From the NCBI RefSeq assembly GCF_011045215.1, contig NZ_CP049201.1: 64,000 bases of DNA. The stretch is one strand, 5' to 3'. The translations under genes and the position numbers were made by a program. Positions 36,349 through 39,030 of the stretch are shown piece by piece. Positions within the stretch are counted from its first letter, which is position 1, and the number at the start of each line of letters is the position of its first letter. Origin of the DNA: Escherichia coli. Its GTDB lineage: Bacteria; Pseudomonadota; Gammaproteobacteria; Enterobacterales; Enterobacteriaceae. The notes under the pieces were generated by a model. It was not told the DNA's origin, ran no database searches, and saw only the letters and a list, made by a program, of their open reading frames with translations.

Positions 36349-39030
36349 TTAGCCCAACAGGCCTGACAGAAACGTTCCCAACTTCCCTTCTATATCACTG
36401 TCTATAGTACGTAATCTTAGCAATGGCAGGCCACATTTCTTCAGTATACTGTTTTTAAGTTCATCACGTTCAGCCTGAACACTGGTCAGATGATAACCTC
36501 CATCCACTTCAATAACCCCTAACGGAGCCTTCCCGACCTTATAGTAAACAACAAAGTCACAACTGGCACGGTTACGCATGAATAACTGTTCACGGTGTGT
36601 AAAATCCCCCCGCTCCAGCAACACCAACTGATTCAGCGCTATTTGTGAATGAAACATCATACTCCGATAACTATCCTGCGACAGGATATCCCGCAACAGG
36701 CAGGCCACAATCTGTTCTGACTTAAAGTGTGAATCATTTGAATTCAATCTACTATTCAGTCGTTCCAGTGATTTGTCATACTCACTGTACAGCAAATCAA
36801 ATGCTGATATGACCGGGCTCTCGAAAATCTCTCCGTCATCAGCGTAGTATTTGATGTAACGAATCAGCGCCGCAATATGTCCAGCGTGGCGTTCAAATAC
36901 ATCATTACCAGTCACCAGCGTAAATTTATTTCGGGCCCTTGAAACAGCGACATTCACCAGTTCAGGATTATCAACAAACGCGATGTTCCGACTTTGCTGG
37001 CTGCTGCGTTTCTTATCCAGCACAGTGGAAAACACAATTTCATCGCACTCCCGTCCCTGAAATTTATGCACCGTCGATTTCACAAAATCAGCAGGCAGCA
37101 CTTTTTCAGCCAGATTAACCTGTGCATTATATGGGGCAATGTATCCCCTGCTACTTTCTTCATCCCAGTAATGACCTTCCAGAGATTCAAGCTCCCTGAG
37201 ATTTGAAAAATTACGGGTATGGTTTCCTTTTGCCGTGATGACCAGAGATAATGAGGCTTCACCGGAATCAACCGTTAGCGGTATCAGAGCATTATCATAA
37301 AACTGCTTATTACAAAATTGAATGATTTTAGGATGACAGCGATAATGCTCTTTAAGAAGAGTTACTGGCACCATGTTCCTGAACAACATACAAACCGAAT
37401 CAAGTAGACTATATTTCTCACAATTATAGTATTCTGCCGGTGGAGATGGGCTGTTCGGGAGTAATACAGGAACATGTGGAAGTTGCTTACGATCCCCTAC
37501 AACGATTACATTACGGGCACATCCCAGTCCCAGAATGCCCGGAATAATATCCTGCTGTGAGGCTTCATCAATAATCACATAATCAAGAAGGGCACCCTTA
37601 CCGATTGAGTTAATAATCGAATGCGTGCTGCTACCAATAACCGGAAAACGCTTTATAAAATGGTCAAATTCATCCCTGTATGCTTCTGTCGAGAATGAAT
37701 TTCTTGTTGAAATATTTCTTCGCAGATGTTGCTTTAAATAAAGCATAGACCATGATATCAGGCGTTCCAGTAAAATTTTAAAATCAGATTCCTTTAATAC
37801 TTTCTCACATTCATTCAGAGAAAATTGCTTTTCCCGGATAGCTTTTTCATAATAAGAAAGCTGAAGAGAAGTAAATAGTGCCTGCCTTCTCTCCGGAATC
37901 ATCAATGGTTTGACTTTCAGTATCCTGAAGTTTAACAATAAATCAATTCTGTTTCTGAATCCAATCCGCCTGTCAGAAAGGTAATGAATATAAGCCATCA
38001 GGTCGGTTGTTTTTCGTGAGGAAAACCGATATTTGTGAGAAAAAAACTCCTCCGGTCGAAGATTCTGACTCTGCCATTGTTGCAGGTATTTATACTCAAT
38101 ACTCAGTTCATCAATTTCTGCTTTTAACGAAGCAACCTGGTTGATGGCATTCAGGTGTTTTTTCACTTGTTGAAGTACATCATCAATCGCATTTGCAGAC
38201 GGTGAATCAGATAAGGCTTCCTCAGAACGCGAAATCGACGTTGAAAAAAACTGTTGCCTGTTCTCCGTACTCCCCAGTCGTGCCACCACATATCCCAGTT
38301 GCTGTTTGTCCATCTTTTCATAAACATTACTGACAGCTGAGTTATTATTGGACAAAATTGCCACTGTTTTATTCTGAATTAATATATTAGCAACAATATT
38401 GAGTATAGTCTGTGTTTTACCTGTTCCAGGTGGTCCTTCAATAACTGAAATCTGTGAGGAAAATGCCCGTTCGACAGCCAGCAACTGACTTTCATTAAGA
38501 CCAAACGGAAAAATCAAACTCCATGGCGAATCACGTTTTTTACTCTGTCCTGAACAGTATGCATGCAAGGCGGTATCCGGATGAGGAACTATTTTCTTTA
38601 TCTGCCTAAGGATATTCTCATCGATATTTCGGTTATTACCACGAGCATAAAAAATACGTTCATTAGCCACCCTACACAAGTAATTAAACACGGCATGCTC
38701 TGTAAATGCTGAACACTGTTGAAAGTCAAGGCCGGTCGTTTTCATAATGTAGGGTCGTTCACCCTCGCGGTAATAAACAGCAGCATATTTATCACCATAT
38801 ATAATAACCCGTTCAGCCCGGGATGTTACAGCGTCCCCTTTCCTTTCGAGGAAAACATTTCGCAAATTTACAGTTGGCGTTATCTGACATACAGAAAGCG
38901 GACGAGTATATTTTTTCCCGCTGCGAAAATGACAGGTCAGCATAACCTCTCCGTCGTCATTTCCAGCCCACAGCGTCCAGTCGGTAATTTTATGAGTCTT
39001 ATTTTCACCGTCAACACAAATCGTGACCAT
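36349..39030 (-). CDS. SF1 (Upf1/DNA2-like) helicase fused to a C-terminal DUF559/Vsr-like PD-(D/E)XK nuclease domain (893 aa)
   Basis: Track ORF; Walker A VIEGPPGTGKTQTI, Walker B VIIDEASQ, C-terminal helicase motifs HYRCHPKI / KFQGRECDEIVF / VAVSRARNKF, terminal CDFVVYY...GVIEVDGGYHLTSVQAERDELKNSILKKCGLPLLRL; N-terminal ~180 aa unassigned. Confidence 0.85.
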   Translation of the reverse strand: MVTICVDGENKTHKITDWTLWAGNDDGEVMLTCHFRSGKKYTRPLSVCQITPTVNLRNVFLERKGDAVTSRAERVIIYGDKYAAVYYREGERPYIMKTTGLDFQQCSAFTEHAVFNYLCRVANERIFYARGNNRNIDENILRQIKKIVPHPDTALHAYCSGQSKKRDSPWSLIFPFGLNESQLLAVERAFSSQISVIEGPPGTGKTQTILNIVANILIQNKTVAILSNNNSAVSNVYEKMDKQQLGYVVARLGSTENRQQFFSTSISRSEEALSDSPSANAIDDVLQQVKKHLNAINQVASLKAEIDELSIEYKYLQQWQSQNLRPEEFFSHKYRFSSRKTTDLMAYIHYLSDRRIGFRNRIDLLLNFRILKVKPLMIPERRQALFTSLQLSYYEKAIREKQFSLNECEKVLKESDFKILLERLISWSMLYLKQHLRRNISTRNSFSTEAYRDEFDHFIKRFPVIGSSTHSIINSIGKGALLDYVIIDEASQQDIIPGILGLGCARNVIVVGDRKQLPHVPVLLPNSPSPPAEYYNCEKYSLLDSVCMLFRNMVPVTLLKEHYRCHPKIIQFCNKQFYDNALIPLTVDSGEASLSLVITAKGNHTRNFSNLRELESLEGHYWDEESSRGYIAPYNAQVNLAEKVLPADFVKSTVHKFQGRECDEIVFSTVLDKKRSSQQSRNIAFVDNPELVNVAVSRARNKFTLVTGNDVFERHAGHIAALIRYIKYYADDGEIFESPVISAFDLLYSEYDKSLERLNSRLNSNDSHFKSEQIVACLLRDILSQDSYRSMMFHSQIALNQLVLLERGDFTHREQLFMRNRASCDFVVYYKVGKAPLGVIEVDGGYHLTSVQAERDELKNSILKKCGLPLLRLRTIDSDIEGKLGTFLSGLLG

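What the first reader, a model, noticed from the sequence alone, without database searches (positions are those of the whole stretch)
36349..39030. Stand-alone 893-aa helicase-nuclease fusion (SF1 helicase plus C-terminal DUF559/Vsr-like domain) with unassigned N-terminal domain
The sequence shows intact ATPase/helicase motifs (VIEGPPGTGKTQTI, VIIDEASQ, KFQGRECDEIVF, VAVSRARNKF) and a C-terminal PD-(D/E)XK-like module (CDFVVYY...GVIEVDGGYH...RDELKNSILKKCGLPLLRL). This broadly resembles single-protein helicase-nuclease defence effectors (Hhe- or Nhi-type as I remember them), but it is shorter and the first ~180 aa match nothing I recognise. It has a 626-bp upstream region and a ~750-bp AT-rich ORF-free region downstream. 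It may act alone or together with the adjacent operon.
Basis: partly seen in the sequence, partly recalled or inferred. Interest (0 to 1): 0.8.

Follow-up and report, generated by a model that had tools for sequence, protein, structure and literature searches.

The report
Uncharacterised stand-alone helicase–nuclease, likely defence gene
An intact 893-residue E. coli island gene fuses a Upf1-type motor to a Vsr/DUF2726-type DNA-cutting domain and a domain found nowhere else; it travels between bacteria as a lone gene and is probably an untested anti-phage or anti-plasmid enzyme.

Summary
Window 36349-39030 (-) is an intact 893-aa ORF, and every quoted motif is present. It has four parts:
- a family-specific N-terminal beta-barrel/helix domain
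- a Upf1-like SF1 helicase core (AAA_11/AAA_12)
- a ~170-residue helical insertion in that core
- a C-terminal PD-(D/E)XK nuclease, best matched by DUF2726, with DUF559 and MTES_1575 as weaker hits

All helicase motifs and the acidic/His nuclease residues are invariant across 28 homologues.

The window is E. coli, in a genomic island next to tRNA-Ser. The gene occurs in 647 of 5,426 complete E. coli genomes and is frameshifted in O157:H7. Full-length relatives of 840-945 aa occur in many phyla.

In 60 loci from different species, no neighbouring gene family recurs in more than 6. The gene is therefore a stand-alone, horizontally moving cassette. Its flanks often carry restriction, SoFic, Pbe, toxin-antitoxin or candidate defence genes.

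It fails the membership tests for Hhe, Nhi, Mokosh, ProA and CoCoNuT. No paper or curated model describes it.

Best reading: a new family of single-protein helicase-nuclease defence effectors (confidence about 0.5). No defence phenotype has been shown. Moderately interesting; a new variant of a known kind.

The parts
36349..39030 (-). Complete gene: 893-aa helicase-nuclease (stop codon 36349-36351)
   Evidence: ORF list; translation; exact protein known in E. coli as 'AAA domain-containing protein / DUF2726 domain-containing protein'
38701..39030 (-). Residues 1-110: N-terminal all-beta region (ten strands, two small SH3/Sm-like barrels), specific to this family
38506..38700 (-). Residues 111-175: three helices linking the barrels to RecA1. 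They sit where the Upf1/IGHMBP2 'stalk' sits (positional inference only).
   Evidence: Secondary structure. The phmmer alignment to IGHMBP2 starts at query residue 145-149, chain residue 154-158.
38197..38505 (-). Residues 176-278: first part of RecA1, with the Q-like motif and Walker A GPPGTGKT (residues 199-206, nt 38413-38436)
   Evidence: Pfam AAA_11, AAA_19 and AAA_30. Walker A is invariant in 28 homologues.
37666..38196 (-). Residues 279-455: long helical (coiled-coil-like) insertion after Walker A/motif Ia
   Evidence: AF2 helices 279-323, 338-351, 358-368, 379-414 and 417-439. The same position as the helical insertion described for CnuH helicases (PMC11090510).
37471..37665 (-). Residues 456-520: rest of RecA1, with motif II DEASQ (residues 488-492, nt 37555-37569) and motif III VGDRKQLPH
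   Evidence: invariant columns
36826..37470 (-). Residues 521-735: RecA2, with motifs V (HKFQGRE, 655-661) and VI (VAVSRA, 694-699)
   Evidence: Pfam AAA_12. Invariant columns. The AF2 model is unreliable here, pLDDT <50 for 558-767.
36352..36825 (-). Residues 736-893: conserved linker plus DUF2726 / Vsr-clan PD-(D/E)XK nuclease. The core residues D825, E841, D843, H847, Q852, R855, D856 and K859 lie at nt 36454-36558.
   Evidence: Pfam DUF2726 E 1.6e-13, DUF559 E 7e-4, MTES_1575 E 2e-3. Residues are invariant. DUF2726 is classed as PD-(D/E)XK and also listed beside Vsr/DUF559 (PMC3424549). A weak Foldseek hit to restriction enzyme BstEII.
39045..39074 (-). Promoter-like site TTAACA-18 nt-GATAAT, 15 nt upstream of the ATG
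   Evidence: Consensus scan, 10 of 12 matches. It lies inside the 36130-39302 block shared by all the E. coli strains compared. Function not shown.
36130..39302 (-). The unit conserved among E. coli strains: the gene plus 219 bp downstream and 272 bp upstream. Outside it, the strains differ.
   Evidence: BLASTN of the window against five E. coli loci. Serratia shares 80% nucleotide identity over 36338-39063 only.

Best explanation
The gene encodes a stand-alone, horizontally transferred helicase-nuclease. It most likely works as a single-protein defence effector against phages or other invading DNA.

Proposed mechanism:
1. The Upf1-like SF1 motor binds single-stranded nucleic acid exposed on an invader, such as replication or recombination intermediates or an entering strand. 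It translocates 5'->3' using ATP.
2. The covalently attached Vsr/DUF2726-type PD-(D/E)XK endonuclease cuts the nucleic acid that the motor is tracking. The substrate is most likely DNA.
3. The family-specific N-terminal beta-barrel/stalk domain and the long helical insertion act as the sensing or gating elements that keep the enzyme off host nucleic acid.

Shown here: the architecture, the intact and invariant catalytic motifs, the stand-alone and accessory genomic behaviour, and the wide horizontal spread.

Inferred only: helicase polarity, the substrate, the trigger, and the defence role itself.
For: **Catalytic competence.** Walker A, DEASQ, motifs III, V and VI, and the nuclease residues D825/E841/D843/H847 are invariant across 28 homologues of 56-83% identity. 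They are retained in distant members at 32-47% identity.

**Helicase class.** The closest solved relatives are IGHMBP2, UPF1, SETX/Sen1 and DNA2, by sequence and by fold. The best defence-library match is the helicase core of Mokosh MkoA (E 5.5e-44).

**Nuclease class.** DUF2726, DUF559 and MTES_1575. The Vsr-domain residue E1731 is needed for Hhe defence (bioRxiv 10.1101/2022.06.16.496414).

**Stand-alone.** No neighbour family recurs in more than 6 of 60 loci from different species. The E. coli strains compared share only 36130-39302.

**Accessory and mobile.**
- Present in 647 of 5,426 E. coli genomes, and split by a frameshift in O157:H7.
- GC content is lower than the flanks in three genera.
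- Found in Proteobacteria, Campylobacter, Firmicutes, Bacteroidota, Actinobacteria and Spirochaetota.

**Neighbourhoods.**
- In E. coli it lies in the tRNA-Ser island, 2.3 kb from a NERD+UvrD candidate defence gene.
- In other strains it is near Shango-like genes, a GIY-YIG nuclease, and a Dcm plus type IV restriction enzyme.
- In other species, 7 of 42 scanned immediate neighbours hit PADLOC strongly: type IV REase, SoFic, Vsr, and PDC-S01, S05, S07 and M03A.
- 2 of 10 genes at 7-10 kb hit PbeC or a type I REase.

**Precedent.** Single-protein helicase-nucleases (Hhe, Nhi, Hna) are established defences, and several of them are triggered by phage SSB or replication intermediates (PMC10732053).
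Against: - No experimental phenotype exists for any member of the family.
- It matches no validated defence model above threshold in PADLOC or NCBIfam.
- Several loci sit among plain housekeeping genes with no defence genes nearby: Serratia, Photobacterium, Herminiimonas, Edwardsiella and Pseudomonas agarici.
- The neighbour-enrichment figure has no measured genome-wide baseline. It used a crude ORF caller. Four of the seven proximal hits are unvalidated PADLOC candidate families.
- Sequence conservation is unusually high for a defence gene (56-83% identity between classes of Proteobacteria).
- Upf1-like helicases often act on RNA, so the substrate is open.
Confidence: 0.5

Rival explanations
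1. An RNA-directed surveillance or abortive-infection enzyme. The Upf1-like motor tracks RNA (phage transcripts, or stalled or aberrant RNA) and the nuclease cleaves it, as proposed for the CoCoNuT CnuH helicases. This is still a conflict system, but with a different substrate and outcome.
Confidence: 0.15
2. An accessory DNA-repair, recombination or replication-fork-processing enzyme. This would be a bacterial Dna2-like helicase-nuclease that resects 5' flaps or broken ends and is not directed at invaders.
For: DNA2 is among the sequence and fold matches. Several loci lie among housekeeping genes, four of them directly after guaA. Sequence conservation across classes is high. The gene is almost absent from phage genomes and small plasmids.
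Against: The distribution is patchy. It is in 12% of E. coli genomes, in a variable island, and is a pseudogene in O157:H7. Its GC content is foreign to the flanks. The domain order is the reverse of Dna2, and no Dna2-type N-terminal nuclease or Fe-S motif was detected. It has no conserved repair-gene neighbours.
Confidence: 0.15
3. A selfish single-gene mobile cassette. Its nuclease and helicase would promote its own insertion or maintenance, in a homing-like or addiction-like way, for example at the 3' end of guaA.
For: The conserved unit is essentially the gene alone. It sits immediately downstream of guaA in four loci from Photobacterium, Herminiimonas, Sneathiella and Pseudomonas. In Photobacterium, the last 12 nt of the guaA coding sequence before its stop codon recur 42 bp after the gene. 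One DUF559-type enzyme is a homing endonuclease (PMC3424549).
Against: The repeat was found in only one of the five guaA loci examined. Insertion sites otherwise differ. No integrase or intein/intron context was seen. guaA is a known island hotspot (from my own knowledge), which would explain the recurrence without self-mobility.
Confidence: 0.05

Closest known systems
Hhe (Gao et al. 2020 single-protein defence: DUF4011 + SF1 helicase + Vsr endonuclease)
   Same: A single polypeptide with an AAA_11/AAA_12 Upf1-like helicase followed by a C-terminal Vsr-clan PD-(D/E)XK nuclease. The Vsr-domain residue E1731 is required for Hhe defence.
   Different: Hhe is about 1,800 aa with a large DUF4011 N-terminal half. 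This protein is 893 aa with an unrelated, family-specific N-terminal domain. The Hhe models match only residues ~181-296 plus a second stretch: PADLOC 57.9 bits, NCBIfam 76.7 bits against a cut-off of 2000. The nuclease is best matched by DUF2726 rather than DUF559/MTES_1575.
CoCoNuT type III-B CnuH (PMC11090510)
   Same: A Upf1-like SF1 helicase with a large helical, coiled-coil insertion after Walker A, an N-terminal beta-barrel/stalk-type region, and a directly fused Vsr-like nuclease.
   Different: CnuH is defined by a near-obligate operon with the McrB-like GTPase CnuB and the McrC-like CnuC, plus CnuA in type III-B. No such genes flank this gene in the window or in the loci whose neighbours were annotated, and no neighbour family recurs across 60 loci. 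Type III-B CnuH has an N-terminal Sul7s-like wHTH, which is not seen here. A direct sequence comparison was not possible because the supplement sheet was truncated.
Mokosh MkoA / MkoC
   Same: The best-scoring helicase core in PADLOC: MkoA E 5.5e-44 over residues 177-729, MkoC E 4e-39. The same Upf1-like clade.
   Different: Mokosh uses a PLD-family nuclease, either the separate MkoB or one fused in MkoC (PLD fusion and MkoB partner: from my own knowledge). The proteins are over 1,100 aa (profile lengths 1112 and 1136). This protein has a PD-(D/E)XK nuclease and no PLD domain. The matches cover only the C-terminal part of the MkoA model (positions 615-1100 of 1112).
Nhi (nuclease-helicase immunity, Staphylococcus)
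   Same: A single protein combining a PD-(D/E)XK-type nuclease with an SF1 helicase. The proposed target is phage replication intermediates.
   Different: The domain order is opposite; in Nhi the nuclease is N-terminal (from my own knowledge of Bari et al. 2022). The PADLOC Nhi model gives no match at E <= 0.01.
Eukaryotic and archaeal Dna2 / UPF1 / IGHMBP2 / SETX helicases
   Same: The helicase core motifs and fold. A beta-barrel and helices precede RecA1, at the position of domain 1B and the stalk.
   Different: Only about 13-16% identity in the fold alignments. Dna2 carries its nuclease at the N terminus. None of these has a C-terminal DUF2726 domain or this N-terminal domain.

Membership tests
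Upf1-like (DNA2/NAM7) SF1B helicases | AAA_11 + AAA_12 domains with Walker A, DExx motif II and motifs III, V and VI | tested here: met
   Pfam AAA_11 E 1.3e-21, AAA_12 E 6e-14. Motifs are invariant in 28 homologues. PDB sequence and fold hits to UPF1, IGHMBP2, SETX and DNA2.
Upf1-like (DNA2/NAM7) SF1B helicases | 5'->3' ATP-dependent translocation or unwinding | not testable with these tools
   Needs biochemistry; inferred from family membership only
Upf1-like (DNA2/NAM7) SF1B helicases | Domain 1B beta-barrel on a helical stalk preceding or inserted in RecA1 | tested here: inconclusive
PD-(D/E)XK nucleases, DUF2726 / Vsr-DUF559 group | Profile match to DUF2726, DUF559 or MTES_1575 | tested here: met
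   DUF2726 E 1.6e-13 (16 of 16 members), DUF559 E 7e-4 (8 of 16), MTES_1575 E 2e-3 (6 of 16)
PD-(D/E)XK nucleases, DUF2726 / Vsr-DUF559 group | Conserved acidic and His catalytic residues (D...ExD...H pattern) | tested here: met
   D825, E841, D843 and H847 are invariant in A1 and A3, including in distant members. Direct alignment to E. coli Vsr failed (hhalign probability 0.6%), so residue-for-residue equivalence to Vsr D51/H69 is not shown.
Hhe | Full-length match to the Hhe models, including the DUF4011 N-terminal region (~1,800 aa) | tested here: not met
   NCBIfam NF042953 76.7 bits against a cut-off of 2000; PADLOC Hhe 57.9 bits, helicase core only. No DUF4011 in Pfam.
Nhi | Match to the Nhi model; N-terminal nuclease followed by a helicase | tested here: not met
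   No Nhi hit at E <= 0.01. The nuclease here is C-terminal.
Mokosh (MkoA+MkoB or MkoC) | PLD-family nuclease partner or fusion; full-length model coverage | tested here: not met
   Only model positions 615-1100 of 1112 are matched. No PLD domain. No MkoB hit among the window ORFs flanking the gene that were scanned against PADLOC.
ProA anti-phage protein (NF058533) | Score above the curated cut-off | tested here: not met
   112.4 bits against a cut-off of 1500
CoCoNuT type III-B (CnuH-Vsr) | Conserved operon with McrB-like CnuB and McrC-like CnuC (and CnuA) | tested here: not met
   The window neighbours are a TssA fragment, a NERD-UvrD gene, a PerC-like gene and IS elements. No recurrent neighbour in 60 loci.
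CoCoNuT type III-B (CnuH-Vsr) | Sequence clustering with CnuH helicases | not tested
   The CnuH sequences were in a supplement sheet truncated in the held copy
Hna | SF2 helicase N-terminal region plus C-terminal nuclease | not tested
   No Hna reference or model was seen in any output. This protein is SF1, not SF2. That Hna is SF2 is from my own knowledge.

The most novel reading that the evidence does not exclude
This is the founding member of an unrecognised, widespread single-gene immune family, found in at least eight phyla and in 12% of E. coli genomes. Its private N-terminal tandem-barrel domain would be a new kind of infection sensor, for example for phage SSB-coated ssDNA or a modified nucleic-acid end. 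That sensor would license a Upf1-type motor to drive a Vsr-type nuclease. The cassette may also spread by targeting the guaA 3' region.
Probability: 0.3. Interest if true: 0.65.

Novelty: new variant of a known kind. Interest (0 to 1): 0.45.

Why it matters
If it is confirmed as a defence gene, it would add a compact (2.7 kb) single-gene helicase-nuclease system that current finders miss. PADLOC and NCBIfam do not recognise it, and I found no paper on it.

The gene is common in pathogenic E. coli lineages, where O157:H7 carries it as a frameshifted pseudogene, and it is spread across many phyla.

It would also give a small, tractable model for two questions. One is how Upf1-like motors are coupled to nucleases in prokaryotic immunity; Mokosh, Hhe and the CoCoNuT systems use related motors, and the CoCoNuT role is so far only predicted. 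The other is what the family-private N-terminal domain senses.

If it turns out to be a repair enzyme instead, it would be a bacterial analogue of Dna2 with an inverted domain order.

Tried and rejected
- **hhalign, C-terminal profile against E. coli Vsr:** no alignment. The link to Vsr rests on Pfam clan-level hits only.
- **C-terminal profile against PDB sequences:** nothing.
- **N-terminal domain:** no Pfam, PHROG or PDB assignment. The idea that it is a known sensor domain is rejected for lack of any match.
- **Rfam and small-ORF scans of the two long flanks:** nothing. Hidden RNA or micro-gene partners are not supported.
- **ibrAB (PAPS reductase and IbrB) as functional partners.** They lie just downstream in many E. 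coli strains. They are absent from this window and from the other genera, so this is rejected.
- **NERD+UvrD gene (41300-43126) as a partner.** It is absent from strain RM14721, which has the helicase-nuclease, and absent from the other genera, so this is rejected.
- **Phage origin.** Only 2 GenBank phage records and 6 IMG/VR loci match. Two of those loci sit at contig ends and four are 35%-identity relatives, so this is rejected.
- **CnuH sequences for direct comparison:** the supplement was truncated.
- **DefensePredictor tables:** the gene is not among the validated systems visible, but the held files are cut.
- **Distal-gene 'control' for the PADLOC neighbour scan.** It was not a clean control. 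Only 10 real ORFs were scanned, and 2 of them were themselves defence genes.
- **att-like repeats at guaA:** found in only one of five loci.
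Full report
**1. The observation**

The window has an ATG-initiated ORF at 36349..39030 on the minus strand. It encodes 893 residues.

The flanks are as described: 626 bp upstream (39031-39656) and 751 bp downstream (35598-36348, GC about 0.41-0.43). The flanks contain only ORFs of 61 aa or fewer and no Rfam family. A promoter-like TTAACA-18-GATAAT lies 15 nt upstream of the ATG.

The exact protein is on record in E. 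coli as 'AAA domain-containing protein' or 'DUF2726 domain-containing protein'. The window's housekeeping part (trxB, cydDC, aat) is 99.2% identical to E. coli chromosomes. The window is therefore E. coli.

**2. Anatomy**

Pfam gives three assignments:
- AAA_11 at 178-518
- AAA_12 at 549-583 and 625-707
- DUF2726 at 818-879 (E 9e-12)

Residues 1-175 have no match. Scanned on its own, the C-terminal region hits DUF2726 (E 1.6e-13), DUF559 (E 7e-4) and MTES_1575 (E 2e-3). All 16 family members tested hit DUF2726, 8 hit DUF559 and 6 hit MTES_1575.

DUF2726 is classed as a PD-(D/E)XK family and is also listed together with Vsr and DUF559 (PMC3424549).

An alignment of 28 full-length homologues of 56-83% identity shows these to be invariant:
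- GPPGTGKT (199-206)
- DEASQQD (488-494)
- GD.KQLPH (motif III)
- HKFQGRE (655-661)
- VAVSRA (694-699)
- in the nuclease: D825, E841, D843, H847, Q852, R855, D856 and K859

Distant members at 32-47% identity keep these residues too.

An AlphaFold2 model has mean pLDDT 67.7; residues 558-767 are unreliable. A separate N-terminal model has pLDDT 76.8. Together they show:
- ten beta-strands (residues 4-105) forming small barrels
- three helices (113-160)
- RecA1 with a ~170-residue helical insertion (279-455)
- a compact alpha/beta C-terminal domain

**3. The N-terminal domain**

- A profile of residues 1-172 searched against 1.84 billion representative proteins returned only 66 hits. All were full-length proteins of 846-923 aa of this architecture or fragments of them, apart from two weak unrelated matches at the E-value limit.
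- Foldseek against AFDB50 found the fold only in the same family, including proteins from Bacillus subtilis, Salicibibacter, Bacteroides and a spirochaete. After those came only weak SH3/KOW-like matches.

The domain is therefore private to this family. Its position corresponds to the 1B barrel and stalk of Upf1-like helicases, because the IGHMBP2 alignment starts at residue ~145. Homology to that domain was not demonstrated.

**4. Helicase class**

Sequence search of the PDB and Foldseek with the full model both rank SETX/Sen1, UPF1, IGHMBP2, Aquarius, ZNFX1, DNA2 and nidovirus nsp13 on top. This is the Upf1-like SF1B clade.

In PADLOC the best match is the helicase core of Mokosh MkoA (E 5.5e-44, residues 177-729), followed by MkoC, PDC-S37 and Hhe. 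All are partial matches. In NCBIfam every hit is far below its curated cut-off:

| Model | Score (bits) | Cut-off (bits) |
|---|---|---|
| IGHMBP2 family | 147 | 349 |
| ProA | 112 | 1500 |
| Hhe | 77 | 2000 |

**5. Distribution and context**

The gene is present in 647 of 5,426 complete E. coli genomes at 95-99% identity, almost always on the chromosome. In O157:H7 it is split by a frameshift into 722-aa and 171-aa ORFs.

The window places it in the island next to tRNA-Ser(GGA) at 8107-8194. The same island carries an Ag43/Cah adhesin, IS elements, T6SS remnants and a CdiA-like giant protein.

Comparison with five E. coli loci shows that only 36130-39302 is shared by all. Serratia shares 80% nucleotide identity over 36338-39063 only. 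The ibrA/ibrB genes that follow the gene in many strains are missing here. The NERD+UvrD candidate defence gene at 41300-43126 (PADLOC C3a187, E 2.7e-141) is missing from strain RM14721.

Outside E. coli, nine individually inspected contexts were all different. Sixty loci encode a family member of 840-945 aa. They come from alpha-, beta- and gamma-Proteobacteria, Campylobacter, Firmicutes, Bacteroidota, Actinobacteria, Spirochaetota and a cyanobacterial MAG.

Clustering all flanking ORFs showed no neighbour family in more than 6 of the 60 loci. The gene is therefore a stand-alone unit.

True plasmids and phages rarely carry it:
- 18 plasmid records, mostly megaplasmids or chromids
- 2 uncultured phage records
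- 6 IMG/VR loci

**6. Evidence bearing on a defence role**

*For*
- The architecture parallels validated single-protein helicase-nucleases.
- The distribution is accessory and horizontal.
- GC content is lower than the flanks in three genera.
- E. coli neighbours include the NERD+UvrD candidate, Shango-like genes and a GIY-YIG nuclease (strain SFE8), and a Dcm plus type IV restriction remnants (strain RM14721).
- In other species, 7 of 42 scanned immediate neighbours gave strong, essentially full-length PADLOC hits. These were type IV methyl-directed REase, SoFic, Vsr, PDC-S01, PDC-S05, PDC-S07 and PDC-M03A.
- 2 of 10 scanned genes at 7-10 kb hit PbeC or a type I REase.
- A 35%-identity relative in an IMG/VR contig sits beside a DNA methyltransferase and an SNF2-type helicase.

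*Against, or limiting*
- No genome-wide baseline was measured.
- My ORF caller was crude.
- Four of the seven proximal hits are unvalidated candidate families.
- Several loci are purely housekeeping.
- The literature holds no experiment on this family. 'DUF2726' appears in 8 papers, none on this protein. The WP accessions appear in none. The gene is not among the DefensePredictor-validated systems visible to me.

**7. Mechanism (inference)**

The motor is expected to translocate 5'->3' on single-stranded nucleic acid, as Upf1-like helicases do. The fused endonuclease would cut the tracked strand or the duplex ahead of it.

The private N-terminal barrels and the long helical insertion are the obvious candidates for sensing and autoinhibition. 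This would be analogous to domains 1B and 1C, which regulate Upf1-family helicases (from my own knowledge).

By analogy with Nhi, Hna and Hachiman, the trigger may be phage replication intermediates or SSB-coated ssDNA. Whether the substrate is DNA or RNA is open. The Vsr clan favours DNA, and the Upf1/CoCoNuT analogy favours RNA.

**8. Comparison with known systems**

The protein works like Hhe, Nhi or CnuH-III-B: a motor fused to a PD-(D/E)XK nuclease. It fails the membership test for each of them, and for Mokosh and ProA (see the membership table).

The closest described architecture is the CoCoNuT type III-B CnuH. That protein is defined by its McrBC-like partners, which are absent here.

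I classify this as a new variant of a known kind. It is a distinct, widespread and so far uncharacterised family. It is defined by a private N-terminal domain, a Upf1-like core with a helical insertion, and a DUF2726 nuclease.

**9. Verdict**

- Observation: confirmed.
- Interpretation: partly supported. The fusion, the stand-alone behaviour and the novel N-terminal domain hold. 'Hhe/Nhi-type' does not. The defence role is plausible but untested.
- Confidence in a defence or anti-mobile-element role of any kind is about 0.6-0.65: 0.5 for DNA-directed plus 0.15 for RNA-directed.
- Interest: 0.45.

Noticed in passing
window 41300-43126 (-): A 608-aa NERD + UvrD-type helicase. It matches PADLOC candidate C3a187 over its full length (E 2.7e-141) and is annotated by PGAP in other strains as '3'-5' exonuclease'. 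It is a second putative nuclease-helicase defence gene, 2.3 kb from the finding, and is not always co-present with it.
   Followed up: partly
window 35655-36130; compare L002 8993-10848: The ibrA/ibrB pair (PAPS reductase-like plus ParB-like IbrB) follows the helicase-nuclease in many E. coli strains, including O157:H7. It is absent here and is replaced by 475 bp of unrelated sequence. Edwardsiella has a PAPS_reduct+DUF3440 gene about 9 kb from its copy (L011 1-710).
   Followed up: partly
window 30575-35271: Nested insertions split a 'hypothetical protein' gene that lies next to a PerC-family regulator (35268-35597). IS21-family ISEc12 (30924-33429, 100% identical to a copy in strain SFE8) and an IS4-family element (transposase 33497-34912) sit between its two halves (30575-30924 and 34951-35271).
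   Followed up: partly
window 8107-8194 and onward: tRNA-Ser(GGA) marks the boundary between core genes (trxB, cydDC, aat) and a large mosaic island. The island resembles the tellurite/adherence islands of O157:H7 (from my own knowledge). It carries an Ag43/Cah autotransporter (16507-19431), an 840-aa ORF with no NCBIfam match (13870-16392), an IS481-family transposase (21263-22234) and an EAL-type phosphodiesterase-like ORF (24798-25730).
   Followed up: partly
window 39657-40874 (-), 40929-41234 (-), 43223-43798 (-): T6SS debris and an adhesin-type gene lie between the two helicase genes: a 405-aa TssA-like fragment, a conserved 101-aa ORF of unknown function, and an Ail/Lom/OmpX-family outer-membrane protein. 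In strain RM14721 the helicase-nuclease abuts an otherwise intact T6SS cluster.
   Followed up: no
window 45568-54804 (-) and 55357-57096 (-): A 3,078-aa filamentous-haemagglutinin/CdiA-like protein, followed by a 579-aa ORF with no NCBIfam hit. The second may be the TpsB/CdiB transporter; other strains have POTRA/ShlB remnants right next to the helicase-nuclease. Probably a contact-dependent inhibition locus.
   Followed up: no
L006 7914-7925 and 10760-10771; L013, L034, L044: The family gene sits immediately downstream of guaA (52-596 bp) in Photobacterium, Herminiimonas, Sneathiella and Pseudomonas dryadis, and within 5.5 kb of it in Rugamonas and Beduini. In Photobacterium, the last 12 nt of the guaA coding sequence (ATTGAGTGGGAA) recur 42 bp after the inserted gene, like an att duplication. 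No such repeat was found in the other four guaA loci examined.
   Followed up: partly
L008 12001-14681 (E. coli O157:H7 E32511): In O157:H7 strains the gene is split by a frameshift into 722-aa and 171-aa ORFs. The frameshift separates the N-terminal domain from the helicase-nuclease, so this lineage probably carries a pseudogene.
   Followed up: partly
L026 1317-12265 (IMG/VR contig): A 931-aa relative (35% identity over residues 172-892, with a different N-terminal region) lies about 4 kb from a DNA methyltransferase and an SNF2-type helicase. None of the ten ORFs scanned matched a phage structural PHROG. This looks like a defence island in a contig labelled viral.
   Followed up: partly
L016 13356-16490 and L048 7011-9455: In two Bacillaceae loci the family gene is adjacent to a helicase protein. 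The L048 copy matches PADLOC type IV methyl-directed restriction enzyme (E 2.6e-86). The L016 copy has PLD, helicase and DUF3427 domains and falls in the same protein cluster. This is the only recurrent defence-type neighbour seen, and only within one family of bacteria.
   Followed up: partly
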